From a virus (lineage: Duplodnaviria; Heunggongvirae; Uroviricota; Caudoviricetes): a stretch of 15,578 nt of DNA. Numbering within the stretch: position 1 is the stretch's first letter; each line of letters begins with the position of its first letter. The stretch covers positions 1 to 15,578 of the IMG/VR virus record IMGVR_UViG_2534682222_000014; one strand, 5' to 3'. Position numbers and translations under genes: made by a program. Positions 1-10,362 of this stretch are shown piece by piece. The notes under the pieces were generated by a model. The model had not been told where the DNA came from. It made no database searches and was given only the letters and a program-made list of their open reading frames with translations.

Positions 1-282
1 TTAGTGCCTCAGATGATCAACCAGGCGCGCAACGTTGCCTCTGACGGCCACTAGCACGGAAAGGAAAATAATGTTGGCCCCAATAGTGGCCCATGACGAA
101 TGAGGATAAATCCCGCACAGGTAGGCCAGAGGCACAGCGCTGTACGTGACAGTAATTAGCCAGGCTAAACGCGAAACCCACGGACGATGGCGTGAATCAC
201 CACGACGATAAAACATCAGGGTAATCACCACCCCGACGCATAGAAGAGCGTTGATTGTTGCCGATGGGTCATTTAGTACCAC
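1..282 (-). CDS. Small lysis-cassette membrane protein, holin/antiholin-like (three predicted TM helices)
   Basis: 93-aa ORF with stop TAA at 1-3. GTG start at 282 has GGGAGG 5 nt upstream and overlaps the upstream gene's 3' end by 14 nt. Hydrophobic segments INALLCVGVVITLMFY, LAWLITVTYSAVPLAYLCGIY and IGANIIFLSVLVAV. Function inferred from size, topology and position after Q; family not recognised. Confidence 0.5.
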   Translation of the reverse strand: MVLNDPSATINALLCVGVVITLMFYRRGDSRHRPWVSRLAWLITVTYSAVPLAYLCGIYPHSSWATIGANIIFLSVLVAVRGNVARLVDHLRH

Positions 283-655
283 CAGAACCTCCCCGGCGCG
301 TTATCAGCGCCACCAAAGAGCCGACATCCTGGTTATTCAGGAACGTCAGGATTTTGACAGCTAAAGCCGAAACGATTACGGCACCGATGGCATCCAGAGG
401 CTTATCACTGTAACCAGTCCAGTCAGCCAGCTTTGAACCCACCAGCCCTGAGCAGATGATCCCGGCGATGTAGGACACGACAAAATACGCCAGCCGACGC
501 GTTGCACTAAGGTCCGCAGCTGTTGCAATGTAAAATACAGCTCCGGCAAATGCGCCAAACACCACGCCGTAATCGGTTCCGGACAGAAATCCATAGACGC
601 TAGCTCCCGTCAGGACACCACCAGCCAGCCCAGTACCGGAAATCGGATCGGACAT
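269..655 (-). CDS. Putative holin-like membrane protein (about four predicted TM helices)
   Basis: 128-aa ORF, ATG at 655 preceded by AGAGGGGG about 5 nt upstream. Gly/Ala-rich hydrophobic segments (LAGGVLTGASVYGFL, VVFGAFAGAVFYIATAA, LAYFVVSYIAGIICSGLVG, AIGAVIVSALAVKILTFL). First gene after the moron in the late operon; holin role is positional inference. Confidence 0.55.
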   Translation of the reverse strand: MSDPISGTGLAGGVLTGASVYGFLSGTDYGVVFGAFAGAVFYIATAADLSATRRLAYFVVSYIAGIICSGLVGSKLADWTGYSDKPLDAIGAVIVSALAVKILTFLNNQDVGSLVALITRRGGSGGTK

Positions 656-700
656 TTAGCCCCCTCTTTATTGCTGTGAGTCCTCTCAGAACGAGGGGAA

Positions 701-725
701 TAAAAAAGGCCACCATCTGGTGACC
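701..725 (-). terminator. Intrinsic terminator downstream of the moron gene (leftward transcription)
   Basis: On the minus strand: GGUCACC-AGAU-GGUGGCC stem (7 bp with one G-U pair) followed by UUUUUU. Lies between the moron stop (744) and the holin-like start (655). Confidence 0.5.
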
Positions 726-743
726 TTCGTTAATTTTGAGTTG

Positions 744-1280
744 TTACAACGATCTAATCTCTTTCGATAAACAGTCCAACATTTTATTAGCCTCCTTATC
801 AAAATTATGACCAGCGTTTAGAATTATATTCTTCGCCAACTTCTTATCGTCAACTTCACCTGACTGTATTTTGAAGAAAACAGAATTGGCTGGTTTCAGC
901 AATTTTCTAGATTCATCAAACATAACGCTAATCTCAGGAAAATAAACACCAGAGATTAAAATAATTCTATCACCAACTCCTTTATACTCAGGGTTTTTAC
1001 TGAGAATTTCGTCTGATTTATCGCCAATGTCCTCAGATTTAAAACACCCATCAATACAATTTATCCAGCTCATATGATTGGCAAAAAGCAATTTTTTATA
1101 AAGTATTAATGCCTCATAAAGCTGTTCACCCTTTTCAATTTTCCTTCTATTTCTTTCTGAGCGCCACTCATGCGACTGCCTACTACTGTTCTGGAGGTAA
1201 CTTGTAAGAGAAGTTATCAATGTACCCACAAAAATCCCCAAAGCAGCAATTAATGCAACATTTTCTTTAGTCAGTTCCAT
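744..1280 (-). CDS. Hypothetical N-terminally membrane-anchored protein; AT-rich moron between Q and the lysis genes
   Basis: Open frame 744-1394; preferred start is ATG at 1280 (MELTKENVALIAALGIFVGTLITSL...), giving 178 aa, because the upstream 38 codons run through the terminator hairpin. Single N-terminal TM helix then a roughly 150-aa Lys/Glu-rich soluble domain with no motif I recognise. Visibly lower GC than neighbours. Confidence 0.6.
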   Translation of the reverse strand: MELTKENVALIAALGIFVGTLITSLTSYLQNSSRQSHEWRSERNRRKIEKGEQLYEALILYKKLLFANHMSWINCIDGCFKSEDIGDKSDEILSKNPEYKGVGDRIILISGVYFPEISVMFDESRKLLKPANSVFFKIQSGEVDDKKLAKNIILNAGHNFDKEANKMLDCLSKEIRSL

Positions 1281-1290
1281 ACTATCACCA

Positions 1291-1316
1291 TAAAAAAACC
1301 CCACCGAGGTGAGGTT
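1291..1316 (-). terminator. Intrinsic terminator, candidate tR' of the late operon
   Basis: Minus-strand CCUCACC-UCGG-UGGGG hairpin followed by UUUUUUU (plus-strand A-run 1292-1298), about 90 nt downstream of the Q stop and immediately before the moron RBS. Confidence 0.55.
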
Positions 1317-1332
1317 ATCATAGTGATCGATA

Positions 1333-1387
1333 GTTATACAAAGCCCATCATTGATGTCAAATATACACAAATACGGCAACATTGCAA
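1333..1387 (-). promoter_or_regulatory. Candidate late promoter (pR'-like) between Q and the terminator
   Basis: Minus strand reads TTGCAA-16 bp-TATATT (plus 1387-1382 and 1365-1360); an overlapping alternative is TTGACA-16 bp-TATAAC (plus 1360-1355 and 1338-1333). Sigma70-like hexamers seen by eye; which one is used is not established. Confidence 0.3.
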
Positions 1388-1403
1388 ACATCATGACGCT
1401 AAA

Positions 1404-2234
1404 TTACGCGATATTTATCACATCTTCACTTTTAGTCACCCGATTCAGTTGAGAGCTTGAATAACTCTCCTCCTGGAAACATTTGGTCACCAGGCTTTCA
1501 TAGAATGGTTTCCAGCTATAACGCCACGTTCGGTCAGGCAGACTCGGCAACTCAGAAAAAACACCTCGATAGGCAACCGATGATTTTGGCCTGCTGTATC
1601 CCCGCCCTTCGCAGCGCTTACATTCTTTGTAAACTGGTACGCCCTGCAGTTCTGTCGCTTTACGGTCAACCGTCTTGCCAGTTCCGCCACACTGGCATCG
1701 CTTACTTAACTTTCCGGTACCATGGCATCGCGAACATAAACTTTGCTCGGAGTCAGTTACTTCTCGCTTTACCTCAAAGTCAGATGGTGACTGTCTCAGG
1801 TCTTTTGCCCATTGTGGCAATCGCATTGTGTAATGGCTTTTAGTCACGGTTTTAGTGGTTGTAAGCAACCCTTTACCACTACATTTTGGGCATGCCACAC
1901 AATCAGCTGCTGATGAGGAATAATCGTTATAGGCAAACCGGGCAAGGATACGCATGCAGAGGGGAAACTTTTTCCCTGATGCTTTACGAATAGCCATGGG
2001 CGCATGCTCTTTCGCGTACTCCGTTAGCCAGGCAATTGACATCTCCCTGTCCTTGCTGCTGATACCAGCTTTACCTAGAAACATTGCCAGCCCGATGCCT
2101 GCATCAGCCTGAGTCATCCCCAGTGCAGCCATTACATCAGTCACAGTAAGTTGCTCACTTGCTGTCGCTCTGCTGGTATCTGAGATGTGCATGCCTTTAG
2201 GCGCAAAAAACTTTAAAACATTGTCCAGATTCAT
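1404..2234 (-). CDS. Late-gene antitermination protein Q (zinc-binding CxxC type)
   Basis: Track ORF begins at TTG 2264; preferred start is ATG at 2234 with GGAG 5 nt upstream (276 aa). Four CxxC-G-x-G motifs (CPKCSGKG, CSRCHGTGK, CQCGGTGK, CKRCEGRG) as in phage Q antiterminators of the non-lambda type. Position immediately upstream of promoter/terminator and lysis genes. Confidence 0.6.
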   Translation of the reverse strand: MNLDNVLKFFAPKGMHISDTSRATASEQLTVTDVMAALGMTQADAGIGLAMFLGKAGISSKDREMSIAWLTEYAKEHAPMAIRKASGKKFPLCMRILARFAYNDYSSSAADCVACPKCSGKGLLTTTKTVTKSHYTMRLPQWAKDLRQSPSDFEVKREVTDSEQSLCSRCHGTGKLSKRCQCGGTGKTVDRKATELQGVPVYKECKRCEGRGYSRPKSSVAYRGVFSELPSLPDRTWRYSWKPFYESLVTKCFQEESYSSSQLNRVTKSEDVINIA

Positions 2235-7725: not shown

Positions 7726-8358
7726 ATGGATACCGTTGGCAGCAGACTGAGATTTAGAAGAAAGCAGAAAAAACTTACCCAGCGCGATGTGGCTGAGTGG
7801 GCAGGAGTAAGCGCGTCTGCTGTGACCCAGTGGGAAAGTGATTTAACAAAACTTTCTGGTGAGAACTTGATATTGGTGTGTAAATGCCTTCAGTGCTCGC
7901 CAGAATGGTTGGTTTTTGGTTCAGGCGATATCGAAAATGGCATTAACATCAACTTGATGTCTGCCAGAGAGGTCCCTCTCATATCATGGGTGCAAGCTGG
8001 TAATTGGACGGAAGTAATTGGAAATCCTAATAATGAACAAGTGAAAACCACTCGAAAACTTTCTGATTCCGCCTTTGCTTTGAGGGTTAAGGGAGATTCA
8101 ATGACTTCTAGCCAGGAGTTGAGTATTCCTGAAGGTTCTATTGTTATTGTTGAACCAGAGTTCGGCTTCGTGGATGAGGCAAACGGTAAAATTGTCGTTG
8201 CTCAAACGGTATCTGGTGGTGAGGCAACTTTAAAAAAGCTGGCGATAGACCCACCGTTTTCGTACCTAATCCCACTGAATCCTGCGTTTAAACCCATTGA
8301 GGTGAATCAAGAGACCAATCTAATTGGGATAGTTAAACAAATTATCATTGACCTTTAG
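7726..8358 (+). CDS. cI: cI-type prophage repressor (N-terminal XRE HTH, C-terminal LexA-like S24 peptidase)
   Basis: 210 aa, GAGGAG RBS. HTH (LTQRDVAEWAGVSASAVTQWE), Ala-Gly cleavage site (VQAGNW), Ser nucleophile in KGDSM and Lys in ATLKKL, typical of RecA-stimulated autocleaving repressors. Confidence 0.85.
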   Translation: MDTVGSRLRFRRKQKKLTQRDVAEWAGVSASAVTQWESDLTKLSGENLILVCKCLQCSPEWLVFGSGDIENGININLMSAREVPLISWVQAGNWTEVIGNPNNEQVKTTRKLSDSAFALRVKGDSMTSSQELSIPEGSIVIVEPEFGFVDEANGKIVVAQTVSGGEATLKKLAIDPPFSYLIPLNPAFKPIEVNQETNLIGIVKQIIIDL

Positions 8359-8374
8359 CCCCTCTGGTTCCTAC

Positions 8375-8402
8375 AAGCCCGCTGATCATGCGGGCTTTTT
8401 TA
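8375..8402 (+). terminator. Intrinsic terminator directly after the repressor gene
   Basis: AAGCCCGC-TGATCAT-GCGGGCTT hairpin followed by TTTTT, 17 bp after the cI stop. Not followed by a U-run on the opposite strand, so rightward only. Confidence 0.7.
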
Positions 8403-8414
8403 TGCCTGTGAAAA

Positions 8415-8469
8415 TATAGTAAGCAAACTTACAAAATAGACTTGACTGTAAATGTAAGATGTCTAATAT
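8415..8469 (+). promoter_or_regulatory. pL-like early-left promoter with operator sites
   Basis: TTGACT (8442-8447), 16-bp spacer, TAATAT (8464-8469). Near-palindromic 18-mer TAGTAAGCAAACTTACAA at 8415-8432, and ATGTAAGAT at 8452-8460 inside the spacer, identical to the 9-mer in the oR region. Confidence 0.5.
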
Positions 8470-8505
8470 TAAATCCATCAGCAACGAACATTGTGGGCAT
8501 CAGGA

Positions 8506-8709
8506 ATGAAGATAGAGTTGGTTGTTAACGGGAAAATTACTGCTGAGTGCAGTGATGAATCGGAGTTTCTGGCATTCAATGCTGCCGTTTTTAGCGCTCT
8601 ATCGGACATGCAACTTACCCTTCATTCCGAACGAAGGGCTCGTTCAAAATCTAAAATGGCGGCCTTCAATGAGAAGTTTTTTAAAACGGATCCCACGGGT
8701 CGCAATTAA
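8506..8709 (+). CDS. Hypothetical small protein (67 aa) downstream of the pL-like promoter
   Basis: ATG at 8506 (track ORF starts at TTG 8491). AGGA lies immediately next to the ATG, so translation signals are weak. Internal basic patch HSERRARSKSK but no N-terminal Arg-rich motif, so not called N. Overlaps a convergent ORF. Confidence 0.3.
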   Translation: MKIELVVNGKITAECSDESEFLAFNAAVFSALSDMQLTLHSERRARSKSKMAAFNEKFFKTDPTGRN

Positions 8710-8914
8710 GAGAATCAAGAAGCTTAATGGTTTGATAGGTGATGGCTTCCTGTTTAACAGTGTTTTCTGGGCTTGACAGTTGATCGCGCAATAATTGTAT
8801 TTGGTTATGCAGGTCATCTGATAGTGGGCCCTCATTAGCACATATTGCAGCTGAAATGGTCTTAATCGCAGCTTCAATAGCAGTGAGTCTTAACTCAATA
8901 ATATCGTTATTCAT
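8681..8914 (-). CDS. Hypothetical small acidic helical protein (77 aa), convergent with and overlapping the previous ORF
   Basis: ATG at 8914 (MNNDIIELRLTAIEAAIKTISAAICANEGPLSDDLHNQIQLLRDQL...), embedded in a longer track ORF. Weak RBS. AT-rich. 3' end overlaps the plus-strand ORF by 29 bp. Confidence 0.3.
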   Translation of the reverse strand: MNNDIIELRLTAIEAAIKTISAAICANEGPLSDDLHNQIQLLRDQLSSPENTVKQEAITYQTIKLLDSLNCDPWDPF

Positions 8915-9183
8915 AGGTTTATCTTCTTGGCTGTGTGAGAACTCCAAGAATACCACCGAGCCTGATGTGGTGAAAAGACAGGCATAGCCCAGACGATATC
9001 TGAGTGGCTTAAAAAACAGATGGGAACCGGTGGAATCCCGGTACACAACGAAAAGAGCGCTGGCATGCAAAAAATATCTCGCAGCCGTAGCAGTACCAAA
9101 AGCCAGGATGGAACGGCAGAAACGCGGTAGTGCTCTTTTTGATGTGGTAAACCCGTAGTAGCTGTACCAGATGCTGTGTGTAG

Positions 9184-9258
9184 TCTTGGCGGTACCAGGG
9201 TCTTCAACCTTATGCAAGGGGGACGAAGATAATGTTCTACCTCGGTACCGCCCTTTTT
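9184..9258 (+). ncRNA. Long hairpin with 3' T-run; candidate terminator or processed sRNA with DicF-like ends
   Basis: Perfect 9-bp stem GGCGGTACC (9188-9196) / GGTACCGCC (9244-9252) enclosing a 47-nt loop with internal pairings (CCTT-ATGC-AAGG, TCTTC/GAAGA), followed by TTTTT (9254-9258). The 5' arm TTGGCGGTACCAG and the 3' CCGCCCTTTTT resemble my recollection of E. coli DicF. Not verified. Confidence 0.25.
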
Positions 9259-9444
9259 ACACAACAGACAAGGGCATCACCGGGCGACGGGCTCATAACC
9301 CAATCCACCCGGGCAAAAAGAAAGCGGTCTCTCAAGCCGCCGACCAATGCAGGTGCCCTTCTCTGTTGTGTATGGAGAAAGTTCGGCGGTGGCAGCCGCC
9401 TTAACTTCGTGTATGGACTAAAACCTTGTGCAGAGGAAAGTTAA

Positions 9445-10362
9445 ATGAAATTACCTAAGTTCCGTAACGCAATCGTGTACCGCGCCACACTACCTAGCAT
9501 TGAAGCTATCGAGGGGCATCTGCTTGAACTCCCCTACTCCGAGATTGGTGAAACTGAGTTTTCACGCGCCTCTTTTGTGCCAAACACGATCACTGGCGAA
9601 TTGGTCACCCCAATATCAGGTGGGTATGCCATCGTGATCCGCCATGATCAGAAAATCATTCCCCAGCATGTTGTTTTGAAGGAAGCCGCAGCACGGATCC
9701 AAAGAATCGAAGATATGTCCGGGAGTAAAATCAAACGTATCGAACGATTAGCAATTATCGACAGCGTCCGCGTTGACCTGTGTAAACGGGCATTTGTTAA
9801 ATCAACGCTGATCCTTGCGTTGTACAGCACCAACGAAAAGCTATTAGTGGTCAATACGACCAATAAAAATATTGCCGGTATGGCTGTGGCTATGCTGGTG
9901 AAAGTTGTCGGTTCCGTTAAAACAGAAACAATCAACATTAGCGATATTAAGAACGGTTTAACTACGCGGTTGAAAAACTATATCAATGGCGTGGCCAATG
10001 CTTTTGAAGGGTTTACCGTCGGCAATTATATCCAGCTGTCCCGCCTTGCCGATCAAAATGAAGTTATTCGCTACTCAGCTGAACACGACTCAATTCAAAG
10101 CGAGCTAGTTGATAGCCTTAATAGCGGCTTTACCGCTGATAAAATGGAGCTAGCAGGATGCGGTGTATCGTTCATCCTCACCGAAAATTTCCATTTTTCG
10201 CGCATCAATACCCAAGCCCAAACATTCAACGATGAAGATGATAAAGCATTTCAATGGCGCCATCAGGCCGGGACGGATCTACTCCAATTCAGCAAAGTAG
10301 TAAACCTGATGTGTGATCTTCTTTCGTACAAAGAAGAACAGCCACAAAAACCCGCAGCCTAA
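9445..10362 (+). CDS. rdgC: RdgC-like recombination-associated protein
   Basis: 305 aa, GAGGAAA RBS. N-terminal FRNAIVYR and GYAIVIRHDQKIIPQHVVLKEAAARIQRIE align by eye with E. coli RdgC ([37 protein letters not shown]); length matches. Confidence 0.65.
   Translation: MKLPKFRNAIVYRATLPSIEAIEGHLLELPYSEIGETEFSRASFVPNTITGELVTPISGGYAIVIRHDQKIIPQHVVLKEAAARIQRIEDMSGSKIKRIERLAIIDSVRVDLCKRAFVKSTLILALYSTNEKLLVVNTTNKNIAGMAVAMLVKVVGSVKTETINISDIKNGLTTRLKNYINGVANAFEGFTVGNYIQLSRLADQNEVIRYSAEHDSIQSELVDSLNSGFTADKMELAGCGVSFILTENFHFSRINTQAQTFNDEDDKAFQWRHQAGTDLLQFSKVVNLMCDLLSYKEEQPQKPAA

What the first reader, a model, noticed from the sequence alone, without database searches (positions are those of the whole stretch)
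701..1316. AT-rich moron between Q and the lysis genes, bracketed by two intrinsic terminators, encoding an unrecognisable membrane-anchored protein
The 744-1280 gene is visibly lower in GC than its neighbours and sits in the Q-to-holin slot where lambdoid phages carry cargo such as toxins or exclusion genes. A hairpin plus U-run lies immediately upstream (1291-1316) and another immediately downstream (701-725), so expression would need Q-dependent readthrough or an unidentified promoter. The product has one N-terminal TM helix and a roughly 150-aa charged domain with no catalytic motif I recognise, making it a candidate for a new single-gene function (abortive infection, exclusion, lysis timing or virulence).
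Basis: partly seen in the sequence, partly recalled or inferred. Interest (0 to 1): 0.65.

Follow-up and report, generated by a model that had tools for sequence, protein, structure and literature searches.

The report
Unknown membrane protein beside phage lysis genes
A rare, AT-rich accessory gene sits at the start of a lambda-like prophage's late operon and encodes a membrane-anchored four-helix-bundle protein of unnamed family that always lies next to the lysis genes; its function is unknown.

Summary
Window 744-1280 (- strand) is a 178-aa gene with GC 0.35 against about 0.52 in the flanks. It lies between an antiterminator Q gene and two holin genes, with an intrinsic terminator on each side.

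Neither terminator belongs to the insert. The upstream one is the tR' of a lambda-type PR'/pause/tR' leader about 60 nt long. The downstream one belongs to the holin leader and is present whatever fills the slot. A related E. coli prophage has both terminators and no gene between them. The ribosome-binding site abuts the tR' T-run, so expression must come from PR' transcripts that pass tR'. That implies Q dependence.

The protein matches no Pfam, PHROG, NCBIfam, PADLOC or PDB sequence family. It belongs to a small family: 39 clusters among 1.84 billion representatives. It is under purifying selection. The predicted structure (pLDDT 92.8) is one N-terminal TM helix running into a generic four-helix bundle, probably cytoplasmic.

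All 19 distinct contexts examined flank a lysis cassette, either just before the holin or just after the spanins, across at least five cassette types.

Function is unresolved. My best guess is a non-enzymatic, late-expressed membrane accessory of the lytic cycle. Superinfection exclusion and counter-defence are live rivals. It is a new member of a known kind, of moderate interest.

The parts
1404..2234 (-). Antiterminator Q gene (276 aa as annotated; the longest ORF starts at a TTG at 2264)
   Evidence: PF03589 Antiterm E = 5e-46 and phrog_127 E = 4e-93. PGAP annotates it as 'antitermination protein'.
1360..1388 (-). PR'-like late promoter: -35 TTTGCA (1388-1383), 17-nt spacer, -10 TATATT (1365-1360)
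   Evidence: Found by the promoter scan. It aligns with the lambda PR' -35 and -10 and is conserved in loci with the same kind of Q.
1344..1352 (-). Predicted transcription start (about 1352) and -10-like element AATGATGGG, the counterpart of lambda's AACGATGGG (from my own knowledge, the sigma70-dependent pause site used for Q loading)
   Evidence: Alignment with lambda 44,5xx. AACGATGGGC is near-invariant in 9 related leaders. The role of the element is inferred from lambda.
1290..1316 (-). tR'-type intrinsic terminator ending a leader RNA of about 60 nt
   Evidence: All cells pair, with compensatory changes in 2 of 8 pairs. It is present in the empty-site relative L042.
1285..1289 (-). Shine-Dalgarno sequence GGTGA of the cargo gene, two bases after the terminator's T-run (1298-1292) and 4 nt before the ATG
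   Evidence: Read directly from the sequence. TTTTTTTATGGTGA is conserved in 8 of 9 family loci.
744..1280 (-). Cargo gene: a 178-aa protein of an unnamed family
   Evidence: dN/dS is 0.08-0.20. GC is 0.348.
1197..1259 (-). Codons 8-28: the single transmembrane helix; predicted orientation is N terminus outside, C terminus in the cytoplasm
   Evidence: Hydrophobicity and flanking charges: 64 of 66 family members have more K/R on the C-terminal flank. In the models the helix is continuous through residues 5-76.
750..1148 (-). Codons about 45-177: four-helix-bundle domain with the family motifs EKGE(E/Q)LY (49-55) and YFP (113-115)
699..728 (-). Second intrinsic terminator, part of the holin leader
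   Evidence: It is conserved with co-varying stems in 9 of 10 Holin_8 loci carrying family cargo, other cargo, reverse-strand cargo or none.
656..698 (-). Conserved holin 5' leader; CCCCTC (698-693) is complementary to the holin Shine-Dalgarno GAGGGGG (666-660)
   Evidence: Alignment and sequence. The pairing is inferred, not tested.
269..655 (-). Holin gene (Phage_holin_8), followed by a second holin-family gene at 1-282
   Evidence: PF16931 E = 2e-34 and PF05449 E = 1e-19; phrog_198 and phrog_217.

Best explanation
Shown:
- The gene is an accessory cargo gene at the seam between the Q/PR'/tR' module and the holin module of a lambdoid prophage.
- It is the first gene after tR'. Its ribosome-binding site abuts the terminator's T-run, and no promoter of its own was found.

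Inferred from this anatomy:
- It is transcribed only by PR' polymerases that pass tR'. That means strong expression when Q is made late in lytic growth, and at most leak-through in the lysogen.
- The second terminator would stop unmodified polymerases before they reach the holin.

The product, from structure and topology predictions, is a bitopic inner-membrane protein. It has about 7 residues outside, one TM helix, and a 150-residue four-helix bundle held at the cytoplasmic face on a long charged helix. No catalytic motif is conserved.

Inferred mechanism: it works by binding a partner at the membrane rather than by catalysis. Every relative examined flanks a lysis cassette and is co-oriented with the late operon. 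I therefore think it most likely acts as a dispensable accessory of the membrane step of the lytic cycle. That could mean tuning when or how the membrane is permeabilised, or keeping it energised until then. It would do so in a way that does not depend on one particular holin family.

The anatomy and regulation part I hold at about 0.85. The functional part I hold at about 0.35-0.4. The confidence figure given for this explanation refers to the functional part.
For: Slot and regulation:
- The leader aligns with lambda PR' through the -35, the -10 and the TGAC..AACGATGGG start region.
- The tR' hairpin co-varies.
- SD placement is read from the sequence.
- An empty-site relative and relatives with alternative cargo exist.
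- The holin-leader terminator is conserved regardless of cargo.

Real, selected gene:
- dN/dS is 0.08-0.20.
- 39 representative clusters, all 150-215 aa with the same one-domain architecture.

Structure and topology:
- Models.
- Only generic 4HB fold matches.
- K/R bias to the C-terminal flank in 64 of 66 members, and a single TM.
- Invariant residues are E52, Y113, F114 and P115 only, so there is no catalytic set.

Link to lysis:
- 11 distinct contexts lie just before a holin.
- 8 lie just after the spanins and before terminase.
- None lies elsewhere.
- In L050 the gene stays next to the holin even though two other genes separate it from Q.
Against: - A 90%-identical copy (L003, Citrobacter) is paired with an unrelated holin and endolysin (Holin_3_1 plus Phage_lysozyme). 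Across the family at least five cassette types occur. A specific holin partner is therefore unlikely.
- The gene is rare and dispensable. It is found in 2 (window allele) plus 2 (42% allele) of 5,426 complete E. coli genomes, in none of 50,697 phage records for the window type, and is absent from close relatives.
- The two slots that flank the lysis cassette are also general cargo sites, so position alone may reflect where insertions are tolerated.
- No homology to any known lysis regulator was found.
- Topology, expression and function are all untested.
Confidence: 0.4

Rival explanations
1. Superinfection exclusion or anti-phage defence cargo. A small inner-membrane protein made at low level in the lysogen by leak-through of tR', and strongly after induction, blocks genome entry or an early membrane step of competing phages.
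For: - The gene is AT-rich, sporadic and mosaic. Its identity is uncoupled from both flanking genes.
- Alleles differ widely between phages whose holins are about 91% identical (window against L021: protein 42%, holin 91%).
- It is found only in temperate lambdoid contexts.
- There is precedent for inner-membrane moron proteins that exclude phages: HK97 gp15 and P22 SieA (PMC3594210).
- The terminator before the holin would allow cargo expression in a lysogen without expressing the holin (inference).
Against: - There is no promoter of its own, and a well-formed terminator sits directly upstream.
- There is no PADLOC or PHROG exclusion or defence match.
- The bulk of the protein is predicted to be cytoplasmic, whereas most entry blockers act in or outside the membrane.
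- The strict association with lysis cassettes is not explained.
Confidence: 0.25
2. Late-expressed counter-defence or self-immunity factor. It neutralises a membrane-associated host or prophage defence effector during the phage's own lytic growth.
For: - Q-dependent late expression fits such a role.
- Phage phi80 carries a Q-dependent counter-defence gene (atiEcA) in its late operon, opposite a defence gene (PMC11364771).
- Neighbouring slots in relatives hold reverse-strand genes of unknown function that could be defence genes (L030, L050, L048).
Against: - The window has no partner gene in the slot.
- No known anti-defence homology was found.
- The reverse-strand neighbours have no PADLOC match.
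- The idea rests on analogy only.
Confidence: 0.12
3. Lysogenic-conversion or host-fitness cargo, such as envelope stress tolerance or virulence, in the way Bor or Stx occupy slots next to the lysis genes.
For: - The same slots hold such cargo in other lambdoid phages (from my own knowledge: stx between Q and S, bor after Rz).
- Distant family members after the spanins are each followed at once by a strong terminator. Two of them have weak promoter-like sites upstream.
Against: - There is no secretion signal or lipobox, and the predicted domain is cytoplasmic.
- No promoter was found in the window.
- The promoter-like sites in relatives are not above chance.
- The gene is very rare even within E. 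coli.
Confidence: 0.08
4. A core lysis protein in disguise: an i-spanin, a holin or an antiholin.
For: An N-terminal TM followed by about 150 helical residues resembles an i-spanin on paper, and the gene lies next to the holins.
Against: - No holin, Phage_lysis or spanin HMM match for any of 26 members.
- The predicted orientation is opposite to an i-spanin.
- The fold is a compact bundle, not an extended coiled coil.
- There is no embedded or adjacent lipoprotein ORF.
- The cassettes already have spanin candidates.
- The gene is absent from close relatives that keep the same type of lysis cassette.
Confidence: 0.03
5. Non-functional AT-rich filler or a spurious ORF.
For: The gene is rare, unannotated and unusual in composition.
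Against: - Purifying selection, with dN/dS 0.08-0.20.
- Length and architecture are conserved down to about 20% identity.
- The structure prediction is confident and consistent.
- The SD and start context are conserved.
Confidence: 0.02

Closest known systems
Cargo genes of the PR'-tR' to holin slot of lambdoid phages (for example stx2AB in Stx phages, cold-shock genes in cryptic prophages)
   Same: Same position and same implied control. The gene lies downstream of a lambda-type PR'/pause/tR' leader and upstream of the holin. It is absent from close relatives and replaced by other genes in some.
   Different: The product is an unrelated membrane protein with no toxin, enzyme or nucleic-acid-binding domain. 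Relatives of the same family also occupy the slot after the spanins.
Morons as defined for HK97/HK022 (PMC3594210), including the HK97 gp15 inner-membrane exclusion protein
   Same: Extra DNA relative to related phages, deviant GC, a terminator after the gene, and an inner-membrane product.
   Different: No promoter of its own. The terminator is shared with the holin module. There is no sequence relation to gp15 or other exclusion families in PHROGs. The gene sits in the lysis region, not the tail operon.
Lambda PR' - 6S RNA - tR' late leader
   Same: The -35, the -10 and the TGAC..AA(C/T)GATGGG start region align. A terminated short leader precedes the first late gene.
   Different: The leader is about 60 nt, against 194 nt in lambda (the lambda length is from my own knowledge). 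The Q protein is of the PF03589 type, not lambda's PF06530 type.
Four-helix-bundle sensor domains of chemoreceptors and histidine kinases (for example MCP2201 LBD, HK9 sensor, Tar)
   Different: Only 6-12% identity and no Pfam 4HB_MCP match. There is no second TM and no output domain. The predicted location is cytoplasmic rather than periplasmic. De novo designed bundles score almost as well, so the match is to a generic fold.
phi80 AtiEcA, a Q-dependent late-operon counter-defence gene (PMC11364771)
   Same: An accessory gene in the Q-controlled late operon whose timing is set by antitermination.
   Different: No homology was tested or known. phi80 has a paired defence gene on the opposite strand, and the window has none.
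Bitopic membrane proteins with an N-terminal TM and a cytoplasmic helical domain, such as YhcB/ZapG
   Same: Same predicted architecture. Three family members give weak ZapG-like hits (best E = 0.0019).
   Different: The hits are sub-threshold, confined to the TM and charged-helix region, and seen in only 3 of 26 members. This is not evidence of homology.

Membership tests
Moron (HK97/HK022 definition, PMC3594210) | Present in one phage and absent at the same position in related phages | tested here: met
   L042 has 81%-identical Q, the same leader and a holin of the same family (60% identical), but no gene. L002 and L032 carry other cargo.
Moron (HK97/HK022 definition, PMC3594210) | GC content different from surrounding genes | tested here: met
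   0.348 against 0.52-0.54. The same holds for every family member examined (0.33-0.40 against 0.45-0.58).
Moron (HK97/HK022 definition, PMC3594210) | Own promoter allowing expression from the repressed prophage | tested here: not met
   The only - strand promoter-like site in this interval (1281-1403) is the PR' homologue upstream of tR'. Only 11 nt separate the T-run from the ATG. A non-consensus promoter cannot be excluded.
Moron (HK97/HK022 definition, PMC3594210) | Own terminator | tested here: inconclusive
   A terminator follows the gene, but it is conserved with the holin module whatever the cargo. Distant members after the spanins each have a terminator directly downstream.
Q-dependent late-operon gene | Located downstream of a PR'/qut/tR' leader, on the late strand | tested here: met
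Q-dependent late-operon gene | Transcript appears only when Q is supplied | not testable with these tools
   Needs RNA or protein measurement with and without Q.
i-spanin (Rz-like) | Sequence family (Phage_lysis and spanin PHROGs); periplasmic coiled-coil domain; cognate o-spanin lipoprotein gene embedded or adjacent; position after the endolysin | tested here: not met
   No HMM match. Charge bias predicts a cytoplasmic domain. The fold is a compact 4HB. No lipobox ORF is present. The gene lies before the holin.
Holin or antiholin families | Match to a holin or antiholin family in Pfam or PHROGs | tested here: not met
   No match for any of 26 members, whereas the two neighbouring genes match strongly. 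Functional holin activity is not testable here.
4HB_MCP-type sensor domain | Four-helix-bundle fold following a TM helix | tested here: met
4HB_MCP-type sensor domain | Sequence-family membership, a second TM and a downstream signalling domain | tested here: not met
   No Pfam match above threshold. The protein has a single TM and ends after the bundle.
HemY N-terminal domain (the name PGAP gives this protein) | Score at or above Pfam's gathering threshold for PF07219 | tested here: not met
   17.5 bits against a cut-off of 31, covering only residues 8-50 (TM plus charged stretch). It is seen in 1 of 26 members.
Known anti-phage defence or exclusion proteins | Match to a PADLOC-DB model or to an exclusion-annotated PHROG | tested here: not met
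   No PADLOC hit at E <= 1. The only PHROG hits are weak and to families of unknown function. PADLOC-DB dates from 2023, so newer systems are not covered.

The most novel reading that the evidence does not exclude
The family may be a new class of single-gene factor that travels with lysis cassettes. It would be a membrane-tethered cytoplasmic four-helix bundle that either sets the lysis clock independently of the holin family, or acts as a late-phase exclusion or anti-abortive factor at the inner membrane. On this reading the tandem-terminator seam (tR' plus holin-leader terminator) serves as an insulated bay for such cargo.
Probability: 0.3. Interest if true: 0.6.

Novelty: new member of a known kind. 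Interest (0 to 1): 0.4.

Why it matters
Accessory genes at the start of lambdoid late operons include medically important cargo, and several recently found defence and counter-defence genes.

This gene defines an unannotated protein family that no public profile library names. PGAP's 'HemY N-terminal domain' label is a sub-threshold transmembrane match.

Its invariable position beside lysis cassettes of unrelated types is a concrete, testable clue. A deletion in an inducible lysogen and a plasmid challenge assay would tell lysis modulation from exclusion.

The work also clarifies the slot. Both terminators belong to the backbone, so cargo is dropped between the Q-controlled tR' and a holin-proximal terminator. 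That would let cargo be expressed by leak-through without risking holin expression.

If the function turns out to be ordinary, the result still corrects an annotation and a 216-aa gene call that runs across a promoter and a terminator.

Tried and rejected
Profile and sequence searches that found nothing:
- The window protein and 25 relatives found nothing usable in Pfam, PHROGs, NCBIfam and PADLOC. A family-profile search of PDB sequences also found nothing (best E = 1).

Structure searches:
- Foldseek against PDB and BFVD gave nothing below E = 0.01.
- The afdb50 library was unavailable.

Collection searches:
- Pattern scans of 185,579 species-representative genomes found no relative. This was tried twice, with the close-family alignment and with P0011. 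The scans depend on short exact peptide patterns, so this is weak evidence of absence.
- The family alignments were too divergent for locus searches.
- No window-type relative appears in 50,697 phage records or 72,556 plasmids.
- A 17-mer from the leader mostly hit unrelated viral contigs by chance. Only L032 was a true leader.

Other checks:
- Rfam found nothing above threshold in 600-1500, and the window has no tRNA.
- Literature searches for the protein accessions found nothing. Searches for slot-specific descriptions found nothing on this family, only the general moron and phi80 precedents.
- The 216-aa reading (start at 1394) was rejected. The extension overlaps the conserved promoter and terminator, and it is absent from homologues of 62-70% identity.
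- Spanin, holin, signal-peptide and lipoprotein readings were rejected.
- Promoter scans upstream of distant members were not above chance.
Full report
**1. The observation**

On the - strand, an ORF runs from ATG 1280 to TAA 744 and encodes 178 aa. The window is 100% identical over 650-1420 and 1250-2270 to a prophage in E. coli NZ_LR536430. PGAP calls the same 537-nt CDS there.

The gene's GC is 0.348, against 0.536 and 0.523 in its flanks (profile). The upstream gene (1404-2234) is an antiterminator Q of the PF03589 type. The two downstream genes (269-655 and 1-282) are Phage_holin_8 and Phage_holin_3_7.

- Upstream: stem 1316-1297, followed by a T7 run.
- Downstream: stem 728-705, followed by a T6 run.

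Both fold much better than shuffled sequence, with z = -4.6 and -3.6.

**2. What the two terminators are**

*The upstream terminator is tR'.* The 120 nt between the Q stop codon and the cargo ATG align with the lambda late promoter region:

| Element | Lambda | Window |
|---|---|---|
| -35 | TTGACT | TTTGCA |
| -10 | TAAATT | TATATT |
| Start region | TGACTCAACGATGGG | TGACATCAATGATGGG |

In lambda, from my own knowledge, AACGAT is the -10-like element that holds sigma70 RNA polymerase at the promoter-proximal pause where Q loads.

- The same block (AACGATGGGCTTTGTATAAC), the hairpin and the TTTTTTTATGGTGA that follows are conserved in eight other loci. The cargo proteins at those loci are only 34-90% identical.
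- The 8-bp stem is fully paired in seven distinct versions, and two pairs change by compensatory substitution.
- I read 1388-1290 as a PR' promoter, a start near 1352, a pause element, and a tR' terminator that ends a leader of about 60 nt.
- The Shine-Dalgarno GGTGA (1289-1285) starts two bases after the T-run. There is no room for a separate promoter, and no other - strand promoter-like site was found in the Q-cargo interval (1281-1403).

*The downstream terminator belongs to the holin leader.*
- In ten loci with a Holin_8 gene, nine have a hairpin and T-run at the same place. It is followed by the conserved TTCCCCTC...CTGAGAGGACTCACAGCAATAAGAGGGGGCTAAATG.
- This holds whether the slot has a family member, a different gene, reverse-strand genes, or nothing.
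- The stems differ by paired changes, for example GGTCACC/GGTGGCC, GGTCGCC/GGCGGCC and GGCTCGC/GCGGGCC.

*Empty and differently filled sites.*
- E. coli PCP07014 (L042) has an 81%-identical Q, the same PR'/tR', about 140 nt of unrelated spacer, the second terminator and the holin. It has no gene between them.
- E. coli FAM21845 (L002) has a 98%-identical holin and the same second terminator, with an unrelated 249-aa protein in the slot.
- L032 has the same leader followed by a cold-shock protein gene.

The cargo is therefore inserted at the seam between two backbone modules, each of which brings its own terminator. The terminators are real, but they are not the insert's own boundaries.

**3. 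The protein**

*No known family.* Nothing matches in Pfam, PHROGs, PADLOC or NCBIfam.
- The only Pfam hit is HemY_N, at 17.5 bits against a cut-off of 31. It covers the TM and the charged stretch. This is the source of the PGAP product name.
- Databases also hold a 216-aa version that starts at 1394. The extension runs across the conserved promoter and terminator and is missing in homologues of 62-70% identity. The 178-aa form is therefore correct.

*A small family.*
- A word-indexed search of 5.8 billion proteins found 7 clusters.
- An exhaustive profile search of 1.84 billion representatives found 39 with E <= 1e-3. Apart from three short fragments (59-66 aa), all are 150-215 aa and match over most of their length.
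- A profile of 26 members still matches no Pfam, PHROG or PDB sequence family.
- Where sources name an organism, it is Citrobacter, Salmonella, Pantoea or Cronobacter, or an E. coli prophage or Enterobacter phage. All are Enterobacterales.

*Rarity.*

| Collection | Result |
|---|---|
| 5,426 complete E. coli genomes | 2 carry the window allele, 2 carry a 42% allele |
| 50,697 phage records | 0 for the window type |
| 72,556 plasmids | 0 |
| Cultured phages | 3 Enterobacter phages carry a distant member |

*Selection.* Close homologues give dN/dS = 0.20 (window against L003), and 0.08-0.14 where dS is not saturated. The gene is under purifying selection.

*Structure.*
- With a 29-sequence alignment, all five AlphaFold2 models reach pLDDT 90.5-92.8. 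A 7-sequence alignment gave the same secondary structure.
- One helix spans residues 5-76 and includes the hydrophobic segment 8-28. Further helices pack into an up-down bundle.

*Conserved residues.* Across the family only E52, Y113, F114 and P115 are invariant or nearly so, within the motifs EKGE(E/Q)LY and YFP. This looks structural rather than catalytic.

*Topology.* There is one hydrophobic segment and no second one. In 64 of 66 members the 15 residues after it hold more K/R than those before it (means 2.9 against 0.6). By the positive-inside rule, the short N terminus faces out and the bundle is cytoplasmic. This is a prediction only.

*Not a lipoprotein or spanin pair.* There is no lipobox and no embedded lipoprotein ORF.

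**4. Where the family lives**

I examined 19 distinct contexts.

*Eleven members lie just before a holin (34-100% identical to the window protein):*
- The window itself and L001.
- L003 (Citrobacter), paired with Holin_3_1 and Phage_lysozyme.
- L009, L010 and L016.
- L012/L013, with a DUF1133/PF06530-type Q and Holin_3_3.
- L021/L041/L043, then L022, L023, L024 and L050.
- Sources.

*Eight members lie just after the spanins and before terminase (all seven compared are 30% identical or less):*
- L025 (Salmonella), L026 (Pantoea), L030 (Cronobacter), L048 and L049.
- L027, with a lambda-S-type holin.
- L047, the Enterobacter phage ENT1.
- L046, a frameshifted copy in a degraded element.
- Sources.

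None lies elsewhere. All are on the late-operon strand.

Further points on context:
- In L050 the member stays next to the holin although two reverse-strand genes separate it from Q.
- All four post-spanin members scanned (L025, L026, L027, L030) are followed directly by a strong terminator.
- Every member has low GC, 0.33-0.40 against 0.45-0.58 in the flanks. Low GC is therefore a family trait rather than a trace of recent transfer.
- Identity of the cargo is uncoupled from that of either neighbour:

| Locus | Q identity | Cargo identity | Holin identity |
|---|---|---|---|
| L010 | 36% | 69% | no match |
| L021 | 37% | 42% | 91% |
| L003 | 95% | 90% | unrelated holin |

**5. How it most likely works**

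*Shown:* the slot, the leader, the terminators, the absence of a recognisable promoter, the family, the selection and the predicted fold.

*Inferred:*
- Transcription comes only from PR' polymerases that pass tR'. Expression would therefore be strong when Q is made and at most leaky in the lysogen.
- The holin-proximal terminator would stop unmodified polymerases before the holin. The slot would thus tolerate cargo without risking lysis.
- The product is a membrane-tethered, probably cytoplasm-facing helical bundle with no catalytic signature. It most likely acts by binding something at the inner membrane.

*Best guess.* The one clue specific to this family is that all 19 contexts flank a lysis cassette, on either side, across at least five cassette types. 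I therefore rank first a dispensable, late-expressed accessory of the membrane step of the lytic cycle, at about 0.35-0.4.

*Why it is not stronger.* The pairing of near-identical proteins with unrelated holins argues against a specific holin partner. It means any effect on lysis would have to be holin-independent. The two slots beside the lysis cassette are also general cargo sites, which weakens the positional argument.

*Rivals.*
- Superinfection exclusion or defence, about 0.25. It fits the sporadic, mosaic, AT-rich pattern and the gp15/SieA precedents. The missing promoter, the predicted cytoplasmic domain and the absence of defence-library matches count against it.
- Late counter-defence, about 0.12. 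The precedent is phi80 atiEcA.
- Lysogenic conversion, about 0.08.
- A disguised spanin or holin, about 0.03. This was tested and not met.
- A spurious ORF, about 0.02.

**6. Comparison with what is known**
- In position and control, the gene is like other cargo of the Q-to-holin slot, such as stx2 or cold-shock genes.
- It meets two of four moron criteria: absence from relatives and deviant GC. It fails the own-promoter criterion. The own-terminator criterion is ambiguous.
- The leader is a shortened homologue of lambda's PR'-tR' leader, paired with a different type of Q.
- The protein shares only a generic fold with four-helix-bundle sensor domains. It is not a member of any named family.

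**7. Verdict**

- It is a new member of a known kind (late-operon cargo) that founds an unnamed protein family.
- Interest is moderate (0.4). Unknown phage accessory genes are common, but the strict association with lysis cassettes and the availability of lysogens and a cultured phage make the question directly testable.
- The most novel reading not excluded is a new holin-independent lysis-clock or late-exclusion factor. I give it about 0.3.

Noticed in passing
window 656-728 (- strand): The conserved holin leader contains CCCCTC (698-693), the exact complement of the holin Shine-Dalgarno GAGGGG(G) (666-660). This stem could mask the holin ribosome-binding site. Both elements are conserved in 9 of 10 Holin_8 loci regardless of cargo.
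   Followed up: partly
L001 1-9000 (outside the window, beyond its left edge); also L002: The prophage carries two antiterminator and lysis modules in series. The first is Q1, cargo, holin, holin, GH19 endolysin and a 116-aa ORF. The second is Q2, three tRNAs (Ile, Thr, Gly), a class II holin, a lysozyme and then terminase. A second E. coli strain has the same layout with a different Q1 and cargo.
   Followed up: no
window 1286-1330 (- strand): In the predicted leader fold, CACUAUGAU upstream of the tR' hairpin pairs with UUAUGGUG after it. In read-through RNA this would bury the cargo gene's Shine-Dalgarno sequence. The upstream element is conserved in most family loci, but not in L023 or the empty site L042.
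   Followed up: partly
window 8360-9440: About 1.1 kb lies between the cI-like repressor gene (7726-8358, +) and rdgC (9445-10362, +). It has only one annotated 77-aa ORF and GC of 0.40-0.45 over most of its length, rising at the rdgC end. In other lambdoid phages this position often holds exclusion genes.
   Followed up: no
window 744-1394 (- strand): Public protein collections hold this gene as a 216-aa product (P0001, P0002) whose first 38 codons run across the late promoter and terminator. PGAP's product name, 'heme biosynthesis HemY N-terminal domain-containing protein', rests on a sub-threshold transmembrane match.
   Followed up: yes
L030 989-2587, L050 2794-4332, L048 1900-2364, L023 6891-7512: Other occupants of the Q-to-holin slot in relatives include reverse-strand genes of 137-356 aa. 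The three I scanned (L030, L023) have no significant Pfam match and no PADLOC match; those in L048 and L050 have no precomputed Pfam hit. They are possible unrecognised defence cargo.
   Followed up: partly
L046 3378-3991: A family member (95% identical to P0014) is split by a frameshift and has its YFP motif changed to YSP. It sits in a small degraded element next to an integrase gene, and is apparently a decaying copy.
   Followed up: no
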